From a virus: a DNA stretch of 64,000 nucleotides. Position numbers and translations under genes: made by a program. Below the pieces are notes generated by a model. It saw nothing but the letters and a program-made list of their open reading frames with translations. It did no database searches and was not told where the DNA came from. The DNA lies in IMG/VR virus record IMGVR_UViG_3300028008_001363, positions 1-64,000 of that record; one strand, 5' to 3'. Numbering within the stretch: the stretch's first letter is position 1; each line of letters starts with the position of its first letter. Positions 32,261 to 43,415 of the stretch are shown here, piece by piece.

Positions 32261-33109
32261 ATGAGAAAACTATTAGATTACATAAAAGAGTCATTCATTG
32301 GAAGAACAATACGTTGGATATTTAAAAATCCTTACTTTGTTGTAGTCATAGTTTTACTTGGGGTAGTAGGACAAGACAAAGGCGTTCAGTGGTACAATGA
32401 TTACATGGTATTATACGAAGAAGCAAATAACAAAATTGAAGAAGAAGAGAATACAGGCGGCTTAGAATTAACAAAGATTGATGATGCGTTATACACGTTA
32501 ATAGGTACAGTAAAAGAAGGTGACTGTGGCAAGATTGCAAAAGAAATGCCAGACGAAGGCTGGTTTACTGTAATATTAGAAAGTCCAGGTGGCAATCTCG
32601 CAGATGGTTCTTGTCTTGCGGCACATATGAAACTTCGTAATGTTGTTACTGTTGTTAGAAGTACACCAGTTATGAATGAACTTGGCGAAATGATTTATAC
32701 ACCAGGAACAAACGTTGACGAAAATACACCAGACTTTATGAAAGGTAAATCAGTTTGTGCATCAGCATGTGGTTTGATGTTCTTAGCAGGTGATAAACGA
32801 TATCTAATGGGTGATGTTTACTTTGGTATTCATGGTCCAGGAACACCACCAGGTAGTATGAATGGTGCAAATCCTGCGGCTATAGAAAGTTCTGCATTTA
32901 GAACAGCATCATCATTGTTACAGTTGTTGAAATCTTTAGGTGTTGAAGACGAAGGTTTAAGAATGTTATTCATTCAAATTCCAAACGCAACAATGTATTG
33001 GTTGCATCCACGAGACTTTGAAGTTAAGCCAGGACTAGTTAGAATAGCAACAGACTATAGAGATTTCTTTGGCACTACAGGCAGTGACCCAGAAGGTGGC
33101 ATGAGATGA
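32261..33109 (+). CDS. Membrane-anchored ClpP/crotonase-fold protein (putative periplasmic peptidase)
   Basis: N-terminal TM; LESPGG, CASAC..FLAG..R, GIH. Confidence 0.7.
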   Translation: MRKLLDYIKESFIGRTIRWIFKNPYFVVVIVLLGVVGQDKGVQWYNDYMVLYEEANNKIEEEENTGGLELTKIDDALYTLIGTVKEGDCGKIAKEMPDEGWFTVILESPGGNLADGSCLAAHMKLRNVVTVVRSTPVMNELGEMIYTPGTNVDENTPDFMKGKSVCASACGLMFLAGDKRYLMGDVYFGIHGPGTPPGSMNGANPAAIESSAFRTASSLLQLLKSLGVEDEGLRMLFIQIPNATMYWLHPRDFEVKPGLVRIATDYRDFFGTTGSDPEGGMR

Positions 33110-34939: not shown

Positions 34940-34964
34940 AATCCCGCTTTATGCGGGATTTTTA
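34940..34964 (+). terminator. Intrinsic terminator
   Basis: AATCCCGC-TTTAT-GCGGGATT-TTT. Confidence 0.85.
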
Positions 34965-34997: not shown

Positions 34998-35005
34998 GAT
35001 AAATA
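34998..35005 (+). promoter_or_regulatory. T4-like late promoter
   Basis: GATAAATA. Confidence 0.6.
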
Positions 35006-35038
35006 CAATTAGAAATAATTTATTTGTGAGACAATTGT

Positions 35039-37468
35039 ATGAACTTAAAAGATATACTAGAGGCAGAGAGCAAACAACTGGTTATTATATATCCTGGTCG
35101 CTTTCACCCGTTCCACATTGGACACGGTAAAGTATACAAATACTTGAAGCAGAAGTATAGCAATGCAAAAGTATTCATTGCTACCTCTGGCAAAGTAGAT
35201 GGCGACAGGTCACCTTTCACTTTCGATGAGAAGAAAAAGATGATGATGTTGGCTGGTGTTGATGCTAGTGCTATCGTTCAAACAAAATCTCCATACCAAT
35301 CTATAGAAATCATGGAAAGATTTGATAAAGACACTACAGTTATGGTGTTTGCAGTATCAGAAAAAGACATGGCAGAAGACCCGAGATTTGATTTCTCTAA
35401 TGGTCTCAAGTTAAAGAAGAATGGTGAACCAGCATACTTACAGAAGTGGACTAATCTCAATGATGCTGAAACATTTGGAACTCGTGGTTATATAGCAACG
35501 ACTCCTACATTTCCATTTGAAGTTCTAGGACAAAAAATTAATAGTGCATCACAAATTAGAAATATGATTTCAAAAAGCGATGATACTAAACTAACTCAAT
35601 TACTACAAGACTTATACAGTGTTACAGATGTGCCGCAAGATGTAATAGAGTTATTCAAAAACAAAATAGGCAATACAGAAACCATGAATGAAAACTGGGA
35701 CGAACACTCGTTTTCTAAATACTTAAAAGAGAACGTTATCGAGGACAATATTATGAAAGATACCATATTACAAGCATTAACAGAAGGCAAGAGCCCACAC
35801 AAAAAGGGAACTAAAAAGTATAAAGCCCATATGGCAGCCATGCATGCCGAGTCAATCGAAGAAGAGTTTGACAGAAAAGTCAAAGAAGTTTTAGAAAGTA
35901 GTGCTGACACAGACGAGAAATTAGAATTCATTCATAATGTACTTCAAAACGCAGATGGTGATGGACACAACGATGAGTTGATGGTAACCAAAGCACAATT
36001 CTATGTAGGGCAAATTAAACCTAGAAACGAAGAAGATAAGAAGAAATTATCTTACATCGCAACAACATTAAGTGCATCGACAGACGAAGATAGTTATTTT
36101 GACCAAACGATGGTAGACCAAGCGATGGAATATGTTGAAGATATTATAGAACGCCCAGTGGATGAAAGTGTAAACGAAGCAGATGTTGATTTAAAACCAA
36201 TAGAAGGAAGTTTTGATTGGGTAAACTCAATGTCAGATGGAACACTTGAAACTCTTAAATCTGCGATGAATAATGATTGGGATATGTTGGATGGTATTAA
36301 AGACCTAGCAGACTTTAAAAGAACTATTGATATTTTCTTTACCAACGAAGAAACACCAGTACCAGAAGATATCGCTAAAATATTTAATAAATTATTAGCA
36401 AGGGATGAGAAGGATATTGCTAAATTTAATGAGTTTATACGCCGTGCTTTTATAGATGCGGGAGAAGAACTTGAAGAACTGGAGACGATGTATGAAACAA
36501 CTGACCACGAAGTAAGTATGGCTAGAAAAGATGTTAGCAGACTAGCAAAGTATTCTTCAGAGTTAGAACAAATGCTTAGTAATGTTTCTGAAGAAGAAGG
36601 CTTACAAGGTTGGGTTCAAGCAAAGATTACTAAAGCGGCTGATTATATCTCAAGTGTAAAACATTACATGGAAGGTGATACTACAGAAGTAAACGAAGCG
36701 GTACGAGATAGTTCAGAAGGCTTTGGTGGACAAGCGATAAACTTTATCCATGACTTGTGTATGTTACACGATGGTGTTAAAAGAGACCCAGCAGGATTAA
36801 AATATCTTGGAAAATCTGAAATGTGGGATGAAGGCAGTATTCTAAAAGATAAAGGTAAATTAACTACTCTAATGCTTTGGGTTAAGAAAAACAAAGACGT
36901 TGTTGAAAAACGTTTTTCACGTATGTTTGGTACCTATAGCAACAGAGATGAAAATGGAAAAGTAACAGCATCAGATGGTAATCAAATTCTTAATAACATC
37001 ATTAAGAAAATCCCCACAGTAAATGAAAACTTCAAAGATGTTACACCTTTTGGTTATGGTCCTGATGATTACGATGAGAAAGATGTTGCACCTGAAGACC
37101 ACGGCGGTGACTTGAAAAAGATGCAAGACACATATAAGCATAATGAAGATAGAAACAATCATTCAGAAAACATTCTTATGTTAGCACAAGCATTCGGTGA
37201 TAGAGGTGAGATTAAAGCAGTTGAAGGTCTTTTAAAGATAATCAAACGTCAAGGTCATACGACACCTGAACAATCAGATATGATGTATAAGGCAATTCAC
37301 AAGAAATATTACAAGCAATTGTTTCCAGAAACAGAAGCAGAAGGTAATGAATTTTCTGGTGCATTAGCAAAAGCAAAAATTGATGGCAAAAAGACATTTG
37401 ACGTTGATGGAAAAACTTATAAAGTTAAAGAAGCACTAAGTAAACTAATAGACCAACAGAAAATTTAA
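35039..37468 (+). CDS. Multi-module putative internal head protein; N-terminal HxGH (cytidylyltransferase-like) nucleotidyltransferase
   Basis: YPGRFHPFHIGH and SASQIR; many xNE/xTE junctions. Confidence 0.75.
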   Translation: MNLKDILEAESKQLVIIYPGRFHPFHIGHGKVYKYLKQKYSNAKVFIATSGKVDGDRSPFTFDEKKKMMMLAGVDASAIVQTKSPYQSIEIMERFDKDTTVMVFAVSEKDMAEDPRFDFSNGLKLKKNGEPAYLQKWTNLNDAETFGTRGYIATTPTFPFEVLGQKINSASQIRNMISKSDDTKLTQLLQDLYSVTDVPQDVIELFKNKIGNTETMNENWDEHSFSKYLKENVIEDNIMKDTILQALTEGKSPHKKGTKKYKAHMAAMHAESIEEEFDRKVKEVLESSADTDEKLEFIHNVLQNADGDGHNDELMVTKAQFYVGQIKPRNEEDKKKLSYIATTLSASTDEDSYFDQTMVDQAMEYVEDIIERPVDESVNEADVDLKPIEGSFDWVNSMSDGTLETLKSAMNNDWDMLDGIKDLADFKRTIDIFFTNEETPVPEDIAKIFNKLLARDEKDIAKFNEFIRRAFIDAGEELEELETMYETTDHEVSMARKDVSRLAKYSSELEQMLSNVSEEEGLQGWVQAKITKAADYISSVKHYMEGDTTEVNEAVRDSSEGFGGQAINFIHDLCMLHDGVKRDPAGLKYLGKSEMWDEGSILKDKGKLTTLMLWVKKNKDVVEKRFSRMFGTYSNRDENGKVTASDGNQILNNIIKKIPTVNENFKDVTPFGYGPDDYDEKDVAPEDHGGDLKKMQDTYKHNEDRNNHSENILMLAQAFGDRGEIKAVEGLLKIIKRQGHTTPEQSDMMYKAIHKKYYKQLFPETEAEGNEFSGALAKAKIDGKKTFDVDGKTYKVKEALSKLIDQQKI

Positions 37469-37472
37469 TATA

Positions 37473-38339
37473 ATGAACTTATTTGAATTGACACAATCTA
37501 AAGCCGCACAATCAGAAGTTATTTCTGAGGGTGGTTCTATGCCAGGTGTCGGTGCTATTCATATTGATGAAATCAATCCAACACTTATTCCATTAGAGAA
37601 AGAGTTAGGTATCGATTTAAGAAACAATGCATTAGGTAGTGTTGGTAAAAGAGAATTCAGTGGCGACATTGATGTTGCATTAAAGATTGATGCAGACAAG
37701 ATACCAGAATTCGTAGAAAGACTTAAAAAAAGTAGCCAAATAATGGACATTGCAAAGTCAAGTGTGATTATGACAAAGGTTAAAATCATGGACTTTGATA
37801 AGACTAAAGAAGATGGTAGACCAAGAACTGGATATGTTCAAGTAGATTTCATGCCAGGTGACCCAGATTGGTTAAAGACTTATTATCATTCACCAAATGA
37901 AAAAGATAGTCAGTACAAAGGTGTTTATCGTAATCTAATGATTGCCTCAATTGCTGGTAATTTAGATATAGAAAACAGTGAAGAAACAATTGATGACGGT
38001 AGACCACTTCAATCAAAAAGATTTATGTTTAGTCCGAGAGATGGACTAGTAAGAGTTTTGCGTAGACCAGTTCCAAAAGCATCAGGCAATGGATACACTA
38101 AGAAGAACAATAATAAAATTATCGATGGTCCGTGGAAGACAGCAGACTCGATTGCAAAGAATTTAAAACTAGATAATGGCGAAGACCTATATAGTTATGA
38201 GACATTAGTTACTGCAATTAAGAAGAACTTACCACCTGAAGACCAAAAGAATATATTCACAGCATTTACTAATAACAATACGATAAAAGACATGGGCATC
38301 CCACCAGATATCCAAGAGTATGCAAAGGGTGAATTATAA
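37473..38339 (+). CDS. Pol-beta-superfamily nucleotidyltransferase, putative head cargo
   Basis: LGSVGK...SGDIDVA and VQVDFM; leader ending VISE|GG. Confidence 0.7.
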   Translation: MNLFELTQSKAAQSEVISEGGSMPGVGAIHIDEINPTLIPLEKELGIDLRNNALGSVGKREFSGDIDVALKIDADKIPEFVERLKKSSQIMDIAKSSVIMTKVKIMDFDKTKEDGRPRTGYVQVDFMPGDPDWLKTYYHSPNEKDSQYKGVYRNLMIASIAGNLDIENSEETIDDGRPLQSKRFMFSPRDGLVRVLRRPVPKASGNGYTKKNNNKIIDGPWKTADSIAKNLKLDNGEDLYSYETLVTAIKKNLPPEDQKNIFTAFTNNNTIKDMGIPPDIQEYAKGEL

Positions 38340-39550
38340 TGAGACTAGATGAATTAGATAAGAAAATCACACAGTCTGACTTGGATGCATTAGAAGTATT
38401 CGCTGATAGAATATTTGGCAAAGTTGGTATTGATGTAGAATTTACACGTCACTTCTTAGACAGAGTAAACGATGACCGTAACGGTGAGCAAATTACTGGT
38501 AGTGAACTAACACGTCTATTCAAACAAGAATACAAACGTTGGGGTAAGCCAATCGCACAGATGGGTCCAGATGCTGAAGCAGTAATGAAAGATTTACAGA
38601 CAGATATCAATATGCCATTTGCATTAAGATGGGATAGAGATAACAATGAATTAGATTTGATTGTTAAAACTGTTATGCGTAAGAAAGACTTTAAAACATC
38701 TAACAAAGAATTCCCAGTAGAATCAATAGAAGAAAGTCCTTCAGTAATGTCATCACAACAAATGTTGACAAAACTATCAAAAGAAATGCAAGGCACACAT
38801 ACGGGCGCAATGAACCCAAACTCTGATTGGTCAAAGTTTGTTCTATCTCATAAAGGATTTACACTTAAAGATGTACAAGTTGACCAGATACCAACAGCCG
38901 TTAACAATGACGGAATGAGTCAGGCTAATATTGAAAAATATAAACAAGCAGATTTATCAAAATTCCCACCTATGGTAATAGGCAACGACGGATATATATT
39001 AGATGGTAATCATAGACTTCAAGCATATAAGGCACAGGGCATTAAAACAGTCAAAGCCTACATAGGCGAAGAATCTGAGATTTGGCAGTGGAACAAAGAA
39101 GACCCTAATAATCCTGAAGTATACATTCAAGGATATGGCAGACTTATGCTTAATCAAATAGAAGACAGTATAGTTGGCAAACTTAAAGAACTTACTAAGA
39201 TGGCAGAACGAGGCGACTTTGAACAAATACAAAGTCTATTAGATAGAGATGTTTTACAATTAATGATGAAATCAGTCGTTGATACAAAAGCAGAACTACA
39301 ATCAACTCGTAAAAGAGGTGGACCAAAATCTCGTGGTATTAATAAAGAATCTATATTTGATGCATTAGAAGATGATATGGCAGAAAAGTTCGATGCCGTA
39401 AAAAAGAGTGTAACAGAGTATGGTGTGGGTAAAGTCGTACCAGGAATTAATACTACTGTTGATGTTGGACCTAACGAAATTAAGAAACAAGCCGCTAAGT
39501 TCGGTAATAAAGTCAGTAAAGACGGGTTACCTAAGAAAAATTTACGATAA
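38339..39550 (+). CDS. Multi-module putative head cargo: RelE/BECR-like and ParB/Srx-like domains
   Basis: EFTRHFLDRV...IVKTVMRK; PPMVI...ILDGNHRL. Confidence 0.6.
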   Translation: MRLDELDKKITQSDLDALEVFADRIFGKVGIDVEFTRHFLDRVNDDRNGEQITGSELTRLFKQEYKRWGKPIAQMGPDAEAVMKDLQTDINMPFALRWDRDNNELDLIVKTVMRKKDFKTSNKEFPVESIEESPSVMSSQQMLTKLSKEMQGTHTGAMNPNSDWSKFVLSHKGFTLKDVQVDQIPTAVNNDGMSQANIEKYKQADLSKFPPMVIGNDGYILDGNHRLQAYKAQGIKTVKAYIGEESEIWQWNKEDPNNPEVYIQGYGRLMLNQIEDSIVGKLKELTKMAERGDFEQIQSLLDRDVLQLMMKSVVDTKAELQSTRKRGGPKSRGINKESIFDALEDDMAEKFDAVKKSVTEYGVGKVVPGINTTVDVGPNEIKKQAAKFGNKVSKDGLPKKNLR

Positions 39551-39561
39551 AAGGCTCACAA

Positions 39562-40791
39562 GTGTATAACAAAGATACCATGTGTTATAAAACTTGGAAT
39601 GATATTATCATATCGTTACCCAAGAAAACAGTTAGTTGGTGTTGTAAGACAAACTTAACTGAACAACAAACAAAAGAAACTACATTTGATTTAGATATCT
39701 TAAACAATAAAGGTATAGATTTTCTTTTCAATCATCCAATTCTTCAAAAGAGAAAAAAAGAACTAGCAACTGGTATAAGATGTGCAGATTGTCACGTATG
39801 TTGGGAATCAGAAGATAGGTCTGGAGAAAGTCATAGAACATTATATACTAATCATTCTGTTGAATTTGATTATGATACGCCTGCTACCTTTATTGAACTT
39901 GAACTGACAAACAAGTGTAATTTAGCCTGTGTATACTGTGGACCACAACTTAGTTCGAGGTGGCAAAAAGAATTAAAACAACGACATCCTGATACTGAAG
40001 ATGAAATATTTCATAAAGTAATGGATTTACTGGCTGAGTATTTCAATACCAAACTAACAAATAAACCATATATCAATATCAGTCTATTAGGTGGTGAGCC
40101 TTTCTTTACTGACCACATGTATGTATTCCTAGAATACCTTTCAAAATTCCATGTAAAATCTGAACAAGAAGTAACAGTTACAATCACAACTGGCATGGCT
40201 TTTCCTGAAAAGAAATTTACGAAATTTATTGAGTTAATTGAACGTACTCCTAACATAATATATATTATGCAGTTATCTGGAGAAGCAATTGATAAGAGAG
40301 CAGAACTAATTCGATGGGGTCTAAACTTTGAAACGTGGGACAATAACTTAGATATGTTCTTAACAGAGTCAGCAAGATTGAAGAATTTAGTTATAGGATT
40401 TGGTTGTGCCCATAATGCCTTATCTCTGCCGTATTTCAAAGACTTTCTTGTATACATTAATAAAAAACTGGCAAAACATGAATACAAATCTGTTGTGTGG
40501 TTTTTAATCAACTATATAGAAGACCCACAGCACTTATCCATATCAATGCTAAATAATTATCATGCAGATGCTGTAACAGAGCAGATAGAATATATGGAGA
40601 ATGAAATGACCAATCTTTATAAGAAAGATGAGTATATTACTATGCTGAGGTCACTCAGAAATCAAATTTTGAATGCGAATGTCACTACAGAGATGAAGCA
40701 AAATGCTTCAGATGAATTTAAAAGATTAGAAAATAGACGAAATATATCATTCAAATCTGAATTCCCGCACTTCGATGAACTAGTTAAATGA
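39562..40791 (+). CDS. Radical SAM protein
   Basis: CNLACVYC (CxxxCxxC), GGEPF; N-terminal Cys-rich C..CC..CxxCW. Confidence 0.9.
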   Translation: MYNKDTMCYKTWNDIIISLPKKTVSWCCKTNLTEQQTKETTFDLDILNNKGIDFLFNHPILQKRKKELATGIRCADCHVCWESEDRSGESHRTLYTNHSVEFDYDTPATFIELELTNKCNLACVYCGPQLSSRWQKELKQRHPDTEDEIFHKVMDLLAEYFNTKLTNKPYINISLLGGEPFFTDHMYVFLEYLSKFHVKSEQEVTVTITTGMAFPEKKFTKFIELIERTPNIIYIMQLSGEAIDKRAELIRWGLNFETWDNNLDMFLTESARLKNLVIGFGCAHNALSLPYFKDFLVYINKKLAKHEYKSVVWFLINYIEDPQHLSISMLNNYHADAVTEQIEYMENEMTNLYKKDEYITMLRSLRNQILNANVTTEMKQNASDEFKRLENRRNISFKSEFPHFDELVK

Positions 40792-40798
40792 CAATTTA

Positions 40799-40806
40799 GA
40801 TAAATA
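40799..40806 (+). promoter_or_regulatory. T4-like late promoter (leaderless geometry)
   Basis: GATAAATA 5 nt before ATG at 40812. Confidence 0.6.
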
Positions 40807-40811
40807 CTATT

Positions 40812-41015
40812 ATGAAAATATATGAAGTTATAGGCGAAACAACAGCAGGTGCAATCGCAACTGTGGCATCTCCATTAGGTGGCGGTGACCCTTCGGCTAG
40901 TGTATATAGTAAAAAGAAAAAGAGCAAGAAAAAGAAGGCTAAGATGGGATATAGTGCTGATGTAGGCAATTTATCATACAAGCATCCAGTCAAAACTCCA
41001 ATGATTAAAAGGTAG
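40812..41015 (+). CDS. Small basic putative internal head protein
   Basis: MKIYEVIGE leader followed by a Glu-free, Lys-rich body. Confidence 0.65.
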   Translation: MKIYEVIGETTAGAIATVASPLGGGDPSASVYSKKKKSKKKKAKMGYSADVGNLSYKHPVKTPMIKR

Positions 41016-41022
41016 AAGACTT

Positions 41023-43344
41023 ATGAAATTGACACAAATGATAGAACAAAAAGAACGTCCTTACGTGGTCTTTCACGCTAAAAAAGGCAAATATGAAACT
41101 CATGCAGTATCATCTTATGATGCGGCAAAGAATGCGGCTAAACATTGGAAATTAAAATCAACTGCTGGTGTTACACCAATGTTAGCGGATGTAGAACACG
41201 TTGCTGAAAAGTCAGATAAGAACTGTGGTTGTGGTCAAGACCCATGTGTAACATACGGTAATAAGTCACATCAAGCAGAATCTTATGACGACTATCATGG
41301 TGATATGTCTAAAGAAGAATATGACAAAACAGTAAAAGGTTCTGAAATGGAATATTCTGTTTGGGTTGGCGGTACTGAAGTCAGTGATAATTATTTACCA
41401 TATGACGAAGCAGTCAGATTATACGACAAATATAAAGCACAAGGCTATGATGATGTTCAGTTAGATGCTCGTATTAAAGAATCTGTAAATGAAGCAGAAA
41501 AGCGTTGGAAACAAACTAGTATGTCGCCAGCAGAAGCAGAAAAAGAATACGGTAAAGAAAACGTAAAAGTTAAAAAAGGTGCATTGCGTAATGGCGATGA
41601 CATGGTAGAAGTATTTGTTGAATCATATTCTCCAGGTGATGAGTACGCTGATTCAGAAGGCATGGTAAGTAATTGCTGTGGTGCTCCTATGATGGACTAT
41701 AACGATGGACATGGTAGATGTGGTGATTGTAAAGAAATGGCAGCCGGTGAATCTGAAGAAGAATTTTACGAAAGTTATAGTAACGATGGAAAAACAGTTA
41801 CTATATCAGATTACCAACCTGAAGGCGAAGCAAACGCACATAAGAAATTTAACTTGAGAAAGCAGATACACAGAGGCGAAGATGGCAAACTAATCAAATC
41901 GCCTTATGGTGGATATAAAGTTTCATTTCATGGTAGTGCAGAAGACGTAAAAGCATATGCTGAAAAGAACTTAGGTGAAGCATCTAAGAAACAAAAACCT
42001 TTCTATGACAAGCCACTTAAAGAAGAAGATGCAGAAGCAATTGCGGCTAGAGATGAATTCTTAAAAGTTATGGATATGAAACCAAAGAGTAGCAATAAAG
42101 CAATTGATACAATTAAAAAGATTGTAGCAGACAAACAAAATATGCAAGTCAAATTTGACGATGGCAAGATGAAAGTAGATTTATATACAGCATCAGCCGT
42201 TGTGGCAGTATACAATGCTGTAAACGATGCTAACAAAGAAAAAATTGATAATATGCTAAGAACTAAAGAAGGCATGCTTAGAATGTCAAACTTTGCATTT
42301 AGCAAACTTAAAGAAGGTATTGCAGAAGGCAAACGTATTGATGAGATTTTACCATTAGTTGGTGCGATAGCAGGCGCTATCGGTAGAAAAGTTGCTGGTG
42401 CGGCAGTTAAAAACGTTGCTAAAAAGGCAGCCGGTGCGGCAGCAATGGGTTCAGCAAATGCGGCTGGTAGTGCTATTGGTAATGCGGCACAAAGTTCAGG
42501 TATGAATGCTTCAGCAAAAGCAAAAGGCAAAAAACTTAATGCAGTTAAAGAAGCAGGCGGATATTATACACAACCAGTATACGACATGATTAAACAACAT
42601 GGTTATCCAAAAGTAATGCATAGATTACTATCTGCCTTAGATGCAGATGTAATACAGGATTTTATAAACCGTGAGCCAGACTTAAATGAAACAGTAAATG
42701 AAGCCGACATATTAGGCGATAATTATGCGAATGTATATTATGATTACAGTGAAAGTTTTTATATGATTGATGTATATAAAGATGGCAAAAAGGTAGAAGA
42801 ATATGATGATTACATTGGCGCAAATGAAGAAGGTGACCCAATCAAAGATAAGTTCTTAGAACTTGTTAAGAAAGCCGGTTTAGAACCAGAAGGACTTAAT
42901 CTTATATCAACAGGTGGCGATGAACCTGATGAATACGGTGTATTTAAGAATGGTAAATTCAACTGGGATAAGAATGAGGCATTACCTGCAGTAGGAACAG
43001 CAGTTGCTGGTGGTCTTAAGAAGGCCGCAGGTGCAGTTGGAAAATTAGCAAACAAGGCAGATACAGCGGCATTTGGTCTCAAAGCCAAATCAGGCGTTAA
43101 GTACAATGCAAATAGTCCACAAGGCAAAATGATTAGAAACATGGCTAAAAATGGCAAAACTCAAGGTGCTAGAAGCGATGCAAAGAAGGACCTAGTTAAA
43201 GGTACAGTTGCTGACTTGAAAAAGAAAGTCGGTGGTATTGGCGGTATTATGAAAACTGCGGCAGGTTCATCTGGTTTCTTACCAGCATCCAAACAGTTCG
43301 CACAAGACATGATTGAAAAAGCAATCAAGGACGCTGACAAATAA
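41023..43344 (+). CDS. Multi-module polyprotein, putative internal head cargo
   Basis: MKLTQMIE leader; abrupt compositional blocks separated by VNE/VKE/IDE/E-SY. Confidence 0.7.
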   Translation: MKLTQMIEQKERPYVVFHAKKGKYETHAVSSYDAAKNAAKHWKLKSTAGVTPMLADVEHVAEKSDKNCGCGQDPCVTYGNKSHQAESYDDYHGDMSKEEYDKTVKGSEMEYSVWVGGTEVSDNYLPYDEAVRLYDKYKAQGYDDVQLDARIKESVNEAEKRWKQTSMSPAEAEKEYGKENVKVKKGALRNGDDMVEVFVESYSPGDEYADSEGMVSNCCGAPMMDYNDGHGRCGDCKEMAAGESEEEFYESYSNDGKTVTISDYQPEGEANAHKKFNLRKQIHRGEDGKLIKSPYGGYKVSFHGSAEDVKAYAEKNLGEASKKQKPFYDKPLKEEDAEAIAARDEFLKVMDMKPKSSNKAIDTIKKIVADKQNMQVKFDDGKMKVDLYTASAVVAVYNAVNDANKEKIDNMLRTKEGMLRMSNFAFSKLKEGIAEGKRIDEILPLVGAIAGAIGRKVAGAAVKNVAKKAAGAAAMGSANAAGSAIGNAAQSSGMNASAKAKGKKLNAVKEAGGYYTQPVYDMIKQHGYPKVMHRLLSALDADVIQDFINREPDLNETVNEADILGDNYANVYYDYSESFYMIDVYKDGKKVEEYDDYIGANEEGDPIKDKFLELVKKAGLEPEGLNLISTGGDEPDEYGVFKNGKFNWDKNEALPAVGTAVAGGLKKAAGAVGKLANKADTAAFGLKAKSGVKYNANSPQGKMIRNMAKNGKTQGARSDAKKDLVKGTVADLKKKVGGIGGIMKTAAGSSGFLPASKQFAQDMIEKAIKDADK

Positions 43345-43388: not shown

Positions 43389-43415
43389 AAAGAGTGTGTA
43401 AAAGCACTCTTTTTT
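43389..43415 (+). terminator. Intrinsic terminator-like hairpin
   Basis: AGAGTG-loop-CACTCT-TTTTT. Confidence 0.6.

What the first reader, a model, noticed from the sequence alone, without database searches (positions are those of the whole stretch)
41023..43344. 773-aa polyprotein with about 11 modules, three starting at E|SY
The blocks include a basic Y/H-rich module, a CGCG..PC peptide, an acidic YSVWVGG..GYDDV module, a Zn-ribbon-like CCGAP...RCGDCK, a VDLYTAS helical module and a YANVYYD acidic module. Three modules start after AE|SY, VE|SY and YE|SY, and two after VNE|A. Composition flips abruptly at each junction, as expected for concatenated small proteins rather than one fold.
Basis: partly seen in the sequence, partly recalled or inferred. 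Interest (0 to 1): 0.72.

Follow-up and report, generated by a model that had tools for sequence, protein, structure and literature searches.

The report
Protease-jointed phage capsid-cargo polyprotein
A giant marine T4-like phage encodes a 773-residue chain of about eleven small unrelated modules; related phages swap, drop and reorder them at Glu-ending joints that fit the T4 head-protease cutting rule, so the chain is probably packed into the capsid and cut apart, though no cut has been measured.

Summary
About 430 homologues show that its roughly 11 modules are independent cassettes. They occur in different orders, with different partners, or alone.

In 98 of 108 distinct upstream contexts a module is preceded by Glu (background 8.6%). 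The consensus is [V/L/M]-x-E|[A/S], which is the T4 gp21 rule (L/I-x-E). The motif is conserved at the amino-acid level, not the DNA level. Close relatives differ by cassette insertions and deletions at these joints.

The protein begins with an 8-residue leader, MKLTQMIE. Relatives carry MKTFTEYLKE, and P-SSM7 carries MKTYSQFIEE. These resemble the T4 capsid-targeting sequence MKTYQEFIAE.

A close relative carries a T4-type head module, including a gp21-like protease. The locus is a hypervariable island in a conserved backbone. It lies in a terminator-bounded operon with late-promoter-like motifs.

AF2 gives separate folded islands with disordered joints (pTM 0.30). No Pfam, PHROG, NCBIfam or PDB family matches.

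Cutting, packaging and delivery are inferred, not shown. Other agents in this scan reached the same reading on other phage genomes and on this stretch. It is a new variant of the T4 internal-protein theme.

The parts
41023..41046 (+). Leader MKLTQMIE (residues 1-8), candidate capsid-targeting propeptide ending M-I-E|
   Evidence: Conserved as MKLTQL[IT]E in about 40 homologues. Other family members start MRFTQLIE, MRLHQLDE, MNLSDLLE, MKTFTEYLKE or MGILSDIVNE. 51% of distinct family N-termini carry [LIVMFY]xE within 13 residues, against 13% of other ORFs of the contig. The T4 CTS is MKTYQEFIAE (PMC8442874).
41047..41208 (+). Module A (residues 9-62), basic and Tyr/His-rich, ends HVAE|
   Evidence: Found in 63 homologues, both N-terminal and internal. 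In P0008/P0009 it is joined directly to module C after HVAE.
41209..41280 (+). Module B (residues 63-86), 24-residue Cys peptide KNCGCGQDPC, ends QAE|
   Evidence: Present or absent independently of A. Also matches P-SSM7 gene PSSM7_193.
41281..41493 (+). Module C (residues 87-157), acidic alpha/beta domain, ends KE|SVNE|
   Evidence: Found in 90 homologues. AF2 pLDDT is 84-90 for 108-152. Preceded by Glu in 14 of 19 distinct contexts.
41494..41622 (+). Module D (residues 158-200), AEKRWK...VEVFVE|
   Evidence: Found in 109 homologues at 81-100% identity, in many orders (H-D-E, D-H-E, E-D, N-terminal after the MKTFTEYLKE leader). P1 is Glu in 34 of 39 contexts.
41623..41772 (+). Module E (residues 201-250), four-Cys Zn-ribbon-like, ends EEFYE|
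   Evidence: Found in 91 homologues. P1 is Glu in 21 of 21 contexts. The Cys residues are conserved in the G002 homologue. AF2 confidence is low, so Zn binding is an inference.
41773..42021 (+). Module F (residues 251-333), basic
   Evidence: Found in only 14 homologues. It is replaced by other inserts in relatives.
42022..42342 (+). Module G (residues 334-440), helical domain with beta-hairpin (VDLYTAS core), ends RIDE|
   Evidence: Found in 107 homologues. It also matches a 172-aa protein of Methylophilales phage Melnitz. AF2 gives pLDDT 85-90 in the whole protein, and 74.8 with pTM 0.61 when folded alone. No significant fold match was found; best Z was 5.6.
42343..42552 (+). Segment g1 (residues 441-510), ILPLVGAIAGA then Ala/Gly/Lys-rich, pI 10.5, ends VKE|
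   Evidence: Composition is. The conserved 'DE|ILP' start is seen. AF2 predicts disorder.
42553..42702 (+). Module H (residues 511-560), AGGYYT..., ends LNE|TVNE|
   Evidence: Found in 86 homologues. P1 is Glu in 29 of 29 contexts and P1' is Ala in 32 of 32.
42703..42978 (+). Module I (residues 561-652), acidic beta-rich YANVYYD domain, ends DKNE|
   Evidence: Found in 36 homologues, including cytidylyltransferase fusions. AF2 pLDDT is 68-83 for 578-622. H+I is deleted exactly between VKE| and KNE| in P0008/P0010.
42979..43344 (+). Module J (residues 653-773) plus stop codon, basic Ala/Gly/Lys-rich tail, pI 10.2
   Evidence: Found in 70 homologues at 25-100% identity.
40812..41015 (+). Co-operonic 67-aa gene, MKIYEVIGE| leader, Gly/Ala stretch, poly-Lys
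   Evidence: Lies directly upstream of the polyprotein in nearly all syntenic loci. The leader is seen.
35039..37468 (+). Sister polyprotein P0122 (809 aa): MNLKDILE| leader, NMNAT-like nucleotidyltransferase, then modules joined by SVNE|A, EVNE|A, TVNE|N
   Evidence: Supported. It shares modules with homologues of P0001.
40799..40807 (+). GATAAATAC late-promoter-like motif before the 67-aa gene and the polyprotein
   Evidence: Seven copies in the window against 1.1 expected, all on the + strand. The same motif precedes the portal gene in relative G002.
34998..35006 (+). GATAAATAC motif at the head of the operon, next to a sigma-70-like TTGACT-17-TAAAAT
43389..43412 (+). Intrinsic-terminator-like hairpin closing the operon
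   Evidence: A matching terminator at 34940-34960 precedes the operon.

Best explanation
P0001 is a capsid-cargo polyprotein of a roughly 360-kb marine T4-like phage.

Inferred steps:
- A short N-terminal leader (MKLTQMIE) targets the chain to the prohead core, as the T4 capsid-targeting sequence does.
- The T4-type (gp21, Peptidase_S77) prohead protease then cuts after Glu at each [V/L/M]-x-E|[A/S/G] joint. This releases about 11 small products: folded acidic domains, Cys-rich mini-domains and basic Ala/Lys-rich segments.
- These products stay with the DNA and are probably ejected into the host, like T4 IPI-III and Alt.

Each module together with its Glu-ending joint behaves as a cassette. 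Recombination moves cassettes between phages, and between this gene and its operon neighbour. The result is a hypervariable cargo set inside a conserved genome backbone.

Shown here:
- cassette modularity and shuffling
- the joint motif and its conservation at the amino-acid level
- the conserved leader
- a gp21-type protease in a close relative
For: 1. Modules occur in different orders and with different partners in about 240 listed homologues. 880 clusters at 50% identity match, with lengths of 59-1261 aa among the best 150 listed.
2. Glu at P1 occurs in 98 of 108 distinct contexts, with P3 V/L/M and P1' A/S/G. Tandem sites such as E-S-V-N-E are common.
3. Unbiased homology breakpoints fall within 4 residues of [VLIMFY]xE[ASG] 0.30-0.35 of the time, against 0.12 for random positions.
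4. Near-identical relatives differ by four different cassettes inserted at one joint, and by exact deletion of H+I.
5. Joint codons differ synonymously (TCT/AGT, AAT/AAC, GCA/GCC/GCG), so selection acts on the peptide.
6. The T4 rule is L/I-X-E, first seen at a Glu-Ala bond, with 10-19-residue CTS propeptides (PMC9026906). The T4 CTS is MKTYQEFIAE. Family leaders include MKTFTEYLKE| and MKLTQLIE|. P-SSM7 gene 194 starts MKTYSQFIEE|.
7. Relative G002 (DNA polymerase 92% identical) carries portal, gp21-like protease (PF03420, 88.7 bits; 38% identical to T4 gp21), scaffold and MCP genes. Its MCP has V-M-E|S aligned to T4 gp23 E65|A66.
8. Flanking genes are 88-98% identical across about 50 loci, while the polyprotein is a 44-95% mosaic.
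9. Cytidyltransferases that carry the same type of leader are reported as frequently detected in cyanophage virion proteomes (PMC10665884).
10. AF2 shows separate folded islands, joints under pLDDT 50 and pTM 0.30.
Against: - No cleavage product, virion proteome or ejection assay exists for this protein or any close homologue.
- The window's own contig is 26% complete and holds no protease or head gene, so the protease is known only from a relative.
- The gene sits next to DNA polymerase, not in a head module.
- Some joints depart from the rule (Q-A-E|S at 86; K-T-N-E| in relatives; 10 of 108 contexts lack Glu).
- The leader resemblance rests on 8-10 residues and cannot be given a significance value.
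- The late-promoter reading of GATAAATAC rests on analogy with T4's TATAAATA and on two sites in one relative. The motif also precedes membrane-protein genes.
- The low AF2 confidence at the joints may partly reflect a shallow alignment.
Confidence: 0.6

Rival explanations
1. The protein is an uncleaved or only end-trimmed beads-on-a-string protein. The modules work together on one chain, as proposed for many polyvalent proteins. The Glu-ending motifs are then flexible linkers or helix caps.
For: - Polyvalent proteins of phages carry 2-15 domains and show extensive mosaicism without known inter-domain cutting (PMC5512222).
- The N4 virion RNAP and ArdC are transferred as full-length proteins.
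- No cleavage has been measured here.
Against: - A pure linker does not need an invariant Glu at one position, with a hydrophobic P3 and a small P1', in 98 of 108 contexts.
- A linker also would not be expected to mimic the leader's own ending.
- Tandem sites (E-S-V-N-E) resemble the redundant cleavage sites described for giant-phage propeptides.
Confidence: 0.2
2. The protein is a core or scaffold-like filler. It is loaded into the prohead and cut by the protease, but the pieces are expelled before DNA packaging, like T4 gp22, gp67 and gp68. In this case it delivers nothing to the host.
For: T4 core proteins are cut into many fragments at L/I-X-E and mostly leave the head. Several modules are very acidic.
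Against: - The relative has its own scaffold gene between the protease and MCP genes.
- The locus is hypervariable inside a conserved backbone, which fits host-facing cargo better than an assembly part.
- Folded domains, Cys-rich mini-domains and basic Ala/Lys tails are unlike coiled-coil scaffolds.
- The gene lies outside the head module.
Confidence: 0.1
3. The protein is cut at the Glu joints by a different Glu-specific protease, from the phage or the host, outside the capsid. That would make it a cytoplasmic or secreted polyprotein.
For: The own contig shows no head protease. The gene neighbours are replication and metabolic genes.
Against: - The leader resembles the T4 CTS.
- The motif equals the gp21 rule.
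- A gp21 homologue is present in a close relative.
- No other candidate protease was identified in the operon.
Confidence: 0.05
4. The protein is a multi-core RiPP-type precursor matured by the neighbouring radical SAM enzyme.
For: A twitch-domain radical SAM gene (NF033640, 191 bits) lies two genes upstream. It has weak similarity to peptide maturases. Several modules are Cys-rich.
Against: - The radical SAM gene is missing from syntenic loci L005, L006, L008, L012 and L016, which keep the 67-aa gene and the polyprotein.
- The modules are 24-120 residues, all different, and several fold as domains.
- There are no repeated core peptides.
Confidence: 0.03

Closest known systems
Phage T4 internal proteins IPI, IPII, IPIII and Alt (capsid-targeting sequence plus gp21 processing)
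   Same: - A short N-terminal leader ends in hydrophobic-x-Glu.
- The cut rule is L/I-X-E followed by a small residue.
- The phage lineage has a T4-type head module.
- The cargo locus is highly variable between related phages.
- Basic DNA-associated segments are present.
   Different: - T4 proteins are single products cut once (Alt at both ends). Here one leader precedes about 11 unrelated cassettes, each with its own joint.
- There is no sequence similarity to the mature IPs.
- Cutting and packaging are unmeasured here.
Processed head and ejection proteins of giant phages phiKZ, 201phi2-1 and SPN3US
   Same: - Many head proteins are cut after Glu at a three-residue motif by a gp21 homologue.
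- Propeptides carry redundant sites.
- Cargo is ejected into the host.
   Different: - Their motif is S/A/G-X-E or A-X-E, with long propeptides of about 100 residues or more that are removed.
- They have not been described as chains of shuffled independent modules.
- They belong to a different phage lineage.
Polyvalent proteins of phages and conjugative elements (Iyer et al. 2017, PMC5512222)
   Same: - Many unrelated domains sit in one polypeptide.
- Mosaicism is extreme.
- They are predicted to be packaged and delivered with the DNA.
- A ParB-like protein and a nucleotidyltransferase lie in the same operon.
   Different: - None of the catalogued polyvalent domains (MuF, zincin-like MPTase, ART, PBECR and others) was found in P0001.
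- In that class, processing, where proposed, is by an in-chain metallopeptidase, not by the prohead protease at every joint.
T4 prohead core proteins gp22, gp67 and gp68
   Same: They are cut into multiple fragments at L/I-X-E by gp21.
   Different: - They are encoded in the head module.
- They are assembly parts with conserved sequence, and their fragments mostly leave the head.
- P0001 is hypervariable, lies next to DNA polymerase and contains folded domains.

Membership tests
T4-type capsid-targeted, gp21-processed head cargo (IPI-III/Alt type) | N-terminal propeptide of about 10-19 residues ending in L/I-x-Glu | tested here: met
   P0001 starts MKLTQMIE-8, and this leader is conserved across homologues. 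It is enriched against other ORFs, 51% versus 13%. This is a sequence feature only. The targeting function was not tested.
T4-type capsid-targeted, gp21-processed head cargo (IPI-III/Alt type) | The phage encodes a gp21-type (Peptidase_S77) prohead protease | tested here: inconclusive
   None is found on the window's own 99.9-kb contig, which is 26% complete. One is present in the close relative G002 (PF03420, 88.7 bits; 38% identical to T4 gp21).
T4-type capsid-targeted, gp21-processed head cargo (IPI-III/Alt type) | Cleavage C-terminal to Glu demonstrated (N-terminal sequencing or semi-tryptic peptides) | not testable with these tools
   Only motif and comparative evidence is available.
T4-type capsid-targeted, gp21-processed head cargo (IPI-III/Alt type) | Protein or its fragments present in purified virions | not testable with these tools
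   The evidence is indirect. Cytidyltransferases with the same leader type are reported as frequently detected in cyanophage virion proteomes (PMC10665884).
T4-type capsid-targeted, gp21-processed head cargo (IPI-III/Alt type) | Sequence homology of the mature part to IPI, IPII, IPIII or Alt | tested here: not met
   No PHROG, Pfam or NCBIfam family matches. The T4 IPs are themselves mutually unrelated, so this feature bears on kinship, not on mechanism.
Polyvalent proteins (Iyer et al. 2017) | Two to fifteen distinct domains in one polypeptide, with mosaic architectures among relatives | tested here: met
Polyvalent proteins (Iyer et al. 2017) | Contains domains of the catalogued repertoire (MuF, zincin-like MPTase, ART, DdrB-like ParB, PBECR and others) | tested here: not met
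   No Pfam hit was found for any module at E <= 1. Only an operon neighbour has a ParB-like DGNHR domain.
Prohead scaffold/core proteins (gp22, gp67, gp68 type) | Encoded in the head module between the portal and major capsid genes, with a conserved sequence | tested here: not met
   The gene lies between a radical SAM gene and DNA polymerase in about 50 syntenic loci, and it is the most variable gene there. The relative has a separate scaffold gene.
RiPP precursor with radical SAM maturase | Conserved pairing of precursor and maturase genes | tested here: not met
   The radical SAM gene is absent from L005, L006, L008, L012 and L016, which keep the polyprotein.

The most novel reading that the evidence does not exclude
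This would be a plug-in cargo system. Any small protein that acquires a [V/L/M]-x-E joint can be spliced into a leader-bearing chain. It is then co-loaded into the capsid through that single leader, released by the head protease, and delivered with the DNA. Hundreds of cassette combinations would then represent a combinatorial arsenal of host-takeover or anti-defence factors in abundant marine giant phages, each cassette being an independent effector.
Probability: 0.35. Interest if true: 0.8.

Novelty: new variant of a known kind. Interest (0 to 1): 0.62.

Why it matters
T4's capsid-targeting leader and gp21 processing are textbook, but they are known only for single proteins. A chain of many unrelated, freely shuffled cassettes behind one leader would be a compact way for a phage to load changeable cargo. 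It would also explain a hypervariable island in a widespread lineage of uncultured, roughly 360-kb marine phages.

It gives concrete predictions. Neo-N-termini can be searched for in existing marine viral metaproteomes. It also yields a large catalogue of small orphan domains that are candidates for early host-takeover or anti-defence functions. My library searches found no paper describing such polyproteins in tailed phages.

Tried and rejected
Family and sequence searches that gave nothing:
- Pfam, PHROGs and NCBIfam on the whole protein and on each module gave nothing above noise.
- PDB by sequence gave nothing; best E was 0.96.
- blastn against cultured phages gave no match.
- tblastn gave only two short module hits, to Melnitz and P-SSM7.
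- The 'longer' homologue search gave one 1436-aa cytidylyltransferase fusion only.

Fold searches that gave nothing:
- Foldseek of the whole model against PDB found no hit at E <= 0.001. Against BFVD it found only uncharacterised phage proteins.
- VIA-align on the whole model gave a best Z of 5.8, and module G alone gave a best Z of 5.6. Both are below the noise level stated for such models.
- Foldseek of module G found nothing.
- The ESM Atlas search with module C scored 0.78 at best, to unnamed viral clusters.

Other negative results:
- The T4 late promoter TATAAATA is not enriched, 4 copies against 9 expected. The enriched variant is GATAAATAC.
- The idea that the joints are DNA-level recombination signals was rejected, because synonymous codons differ.
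- The RiPP reading was rejected because the radical SAM gene is not conserved in the locus.
- A metagenome-chimera artefact was rejected. Architectures recur in many independent assemblies and sources, for example clusters seen on 20-38 contigs.

I did not run a protease-substrate complex prediction. The tool description advises against enzyme-substrate jobs.
Full report
**Observation.** The frame 41023-43344 (+) runs from ATG to a stop and encodes 773 residues (84 kDa, pI 6.2). It starts 7 bases after the stop of a 67-codon gene and follows a Shine-Dalgarno-like AAGG.
- AE|SY at 86|87
- VE|SY at 200|201
- YE|SY at 250|251
- VNE|A at 157|158 and 560|561

Module pI alternates between about 4 and about 10. 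The motif [VLIMFY]xE[ASG] occurs 11 times against 4.2 expected.

**Setting.** The window is the first 64 kb of a 99,856-bp IMG/VR viral record that CheckV rates 26% complete. This implies a genome of roughly 360-380 kb. Related records give the same figure (127 kb = 35%, 76.5 kb = 21%). The gene directly downstream, after a terminator and a sigma-70-like promoter, encodes a T4-family DNA polymerase (phrog_262, E 5e-189). The only cultured-phage matches are short module hits to Kyanoviridae (Methylophilales phage Melnitz and Prochlorococcus phage P-SSM7).

**The operon.** The polyprotein is the last gene of a unit bounded by terminator-like hairpins at 34940-34960 and 43389-43412. The genes, in order, are:
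- P0122, 809 aa: an NMNAT-like nucleotidyltransferase followed by modules
- a 288-aa protein
- a ParB-like (DGNHR) protein
- a twitch-domain radical SAM protein
- the 67-aa gene
- P0001

The motif GATAAATAC stands before the first gene and before the 67-aa gene. It occurs 7 times in the window against 1.1 expected, always on the + strand. In a relative it precedes the portal gene. I read it as a late-type promoter by analogy with T4's TATAAATA. This is an inference.

**Modularity.** Searches of 5.8 billion proteins returned 240 relatives of similar length and 193 shorter ones. A HMMER scan of 1.84 billion cluster representatives found 880 matches at E <= 0.001. The best 150 listed are 59-1261 aa long.

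I cut the query into modules A-J and mapped them on every homologue. The modules appear in many orders and combinations, for example H-D-E-I, D-H-E, E-D, C...A-B-G and A-D. They also occur alone in small proteins, or behind a cytidylyltransferase domain. These architectures recur in independent assemblies from JGI, ENA, Logan, NCBI and Tara, so they are not chimeras.

Among the closest relatives (80-96% identical elsewhere), four different cassettes of 35, 56, 77 and 121 residues are inserted at the single joint after Glu157. Each insert ends in x-N-E or x-E-E. Modules H+I are deleted exactly between VKE| and KNE|.

**The joint.** I anchored on the conserved first residues of modules C, D, E and H and collapsed identical upstream hexamers. 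The residue before the module is Glu in 14/19, 34/39, 21/21 and 29/29 distinct contexts, against a background of 8.6%. P3 is mostly V, L or M. P2 is often N. P1' is A, S or G. P5 is often a second Glu, giving tandem sites such as E-S-V-N-E.

An unbiased all-against-all breakpoint analysis places 30-35% of homology breakpoints within four residues of [VLIMFY]xE[ASG], against 12% for random positions. The five VNE joints in P0001 and P0122 use different synonymous codons. The constraint is therefore on the peptide, not on DNA homology.

**The leader.** P0001 begins MKLTQMIE. Across the family the N-termini fall into a few types of 8-10 residues that end in hydrophobic-x-Glu:
- MKLTQL[IT]E
- MKFKQLIE
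- MRFTQLIE
- MRLHQLDE
- MNLSDLLE
- MKTFTEYLKE
- MGILSDIVNE

51% of distinct family N-termini carry such a motif, against 13% of other ORFs of the contig. When module D is the first module it follows MKTFTEYLKE| directly.

The T4 capsid-targeting sequence is MKTYQEFIAE (PMC8442874). T4 propeptides are 10-19 residues long, and gp21 cuts after L/I-X-E. That specificity was first found at a Glu-Ala bond (PMC9026906).

In cultured cyanophages the homologous region holds genes starting MKKFSAFLTE|A (cytidyltransferase), MKTYSQFIEE|G (PSSM7_194) and MLSFKDLHE|K (PSSM7_193, which carries the CGCG module). A paper on cyanophage S-CREM2 found a cytidylyltransferase in the virion proteome. It remarks that cytidyltransferases are frequently detected in cyanophage virion proteomes (PMC10665884). 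Most genes of the window's operon also begin M-[NKR]-[LI]-x-[DEQ]-[LIV].

**The protease.** The window's contig has no Peptidase_S77 match, but it is a fragment. Record G002 carries a 939-aa homologue in the same position upstream of the s86-DNA polymerase pair, and its DNA polymerase is 92% identical. G002 encodes:
- a portal protein
- an acidic 286-aa protein
- a gp21-type protease (PF03420, 88.7 bits; phrog_207; 38% identical to T4 gp21)
- a scaffold-like protein rich in L-x-E
- a gp23-type major capsid protein

In the alignment with T4 gp23, the T4 maturation site E65|A66 aligns with V-M-E29|S of the G002 protein. A second L-S-E42|S follows. The lineage's own capsid protein therefore carries the same kind of site as the polyprotein joints.

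**Evolution of the locus.** In about 50 IMG/VR loci the gene order is conserved: p282, SbmA, nucleotidyltransferase chain, p288, ParB-like, (radical SAM), s67, polyprotein, s86, DNA polymerase, methyltransferase, p251. The flanking genes are 88-98% identical. The polyprotein's best segment ranges from 44 to 95% identity, and its architecture differs between loci. Polyprotein modules also sit inside the nucleotidyltransferase chain of other phages. This is the pattern of a hypervariable cargo island, and it resembles the variable internal-protein genes of T4 relatives.

**Structure.** AF2 on the whole chain (60-row alignment) gives mean pLDDT 47.9 and pTM 0.30. Confident islands lie at 108-152, 165-184, 358-445 and 578-622. 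Every joint is below 50. Module G folded alone reaches pLDDT 74.8 and pTM 0.61.

No fold search gave a significant match, and no profile library matched any module. The biochemical roles of the modules are therefore unknown. By composition:
- E and B are likely metal-binding mini-domains.
- g1 and J are basic Ala/Gly/Lys-rich segments. Similar segments occur in a 632-aa S-RIM2 protein of the homologous region. They may bind DNA inside the head, as the basic T4 internal proteins do. This is an inference.

**Conclusion.** The cassette architecture and the Glu-ending joint are demonstrated by comparison. The most likely mechanism has three steps: leader-directed loading into the prohead core, cutting at each joint by the gp21-type protease, and retention and ejection of the pieces. 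My confidence is about 0.6. The rivals are:
- an uncut multi-domain protein (0.2)
- an expelled core-like filler (0.1)
- another protease (0.05)
- a RiPP precursor (0.03)

It works like the T4 CTS/IP system, but it is not a sequence relative of the IPs. It differs in carrying about eleven cassettes behind one leader.

Other first-stage notes on this same stretch, and follow-up reports on other phage genomes in this scan, reached the same reading. I reached it from the data before reading them, and they are not independent evidence. My searches of the paper library found no description of such polyproteins.

Noticed in passing
window 40812-41015 (+): A 67-aa gene lies 7 bases upstream of the polyprotein. 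It has the leader MKIYEVIGE|, then a Gly/Ala hydrophobic stretch, a run of Lys, and a basic tail. It is conserved at this position in nearly all syntenic loci (45-100% identity). It looks like a small internal-protein candidate.
   Followed up: partly
window 35039-37468 (+): P0122 (809 aa) has the leader MNLKDILE|, then an NMNAT-like nucleotidyltransferase domain (weak hits, below the curated cut-offs), then about 570 residues of modules joined by SVNE|A, EVNE|A and TVNE|N. It exchanges modules with the P0001 family.
   Followed up: partly
window 38339-39550 (+): A 403-aa protein carries a ParB/Srx-like DGNHR motif (phrog_18056, weak). Its N-terminal domain matches phrog_23027, and it starts MRLDELDK. 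ParB-like nucleases are a recurrent packaged component in polyvalent-protein systems (PMC5512222).
   Followed up: no
window 10272, 14928, 27137, 30214, 33179, 34998, 40799 (+): GATAAATAC occurs 7 times against 1.1 expected, all on the + strand and mostly just upstream of gene starts. The canonical T4 late promoter TATAAATA is not enriched. The same motif precedes the portal gene of relative G002.
   Followed up: partly
window 39562-40791 (+): A twitch-domain radical SAM protein (NF033640, 191 bits, above the cut-off) sits inside the cargo operon. It is present in only some syntenic loci.
   Followed up: partly
L017 4723-5403 and 8807-11626: A recurring element E-(I/L)-R-R-L-K-E-L-S-G-I-K-E occurs at joints. 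As ...LRKLAGI it also forms the C-terminal end of several family members. It may be a second kind of joint or a C-terminal propeptide.
   Followed up: no
L002 4639-5157 (Prochlorococcus phage P-SSM7, PSSM7_194): This gene starts MKTYSQFIEE, which matches the T4 capsid-targeting sequence MKTYQEFIAE at 7 of 10 positions. Neighbouring genes start MKKFSAFLTE and MLSFKDLHE. Cultured T4-like cyanophages thus appear to have a cluster of leader-bearing genes in this region.
   Followed up: partly
window 32261-33109 (+); contig 97479-98483 (-), beyond the window: Two further ORFs begin with CTS-like leaders, MRKLLDYIKE|S and MRAFEIFNE|A.
   Followed up: no
L059 4163-6061 (Synechococcus phage S-RIM2): A 632-aa protein lies next to the cytidyltransferase. 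It has long Ala/Lys/Gly-rich and Ser-rich low-complexity stretches that resemble segments g1 and J of P0001.
   Followed up: no
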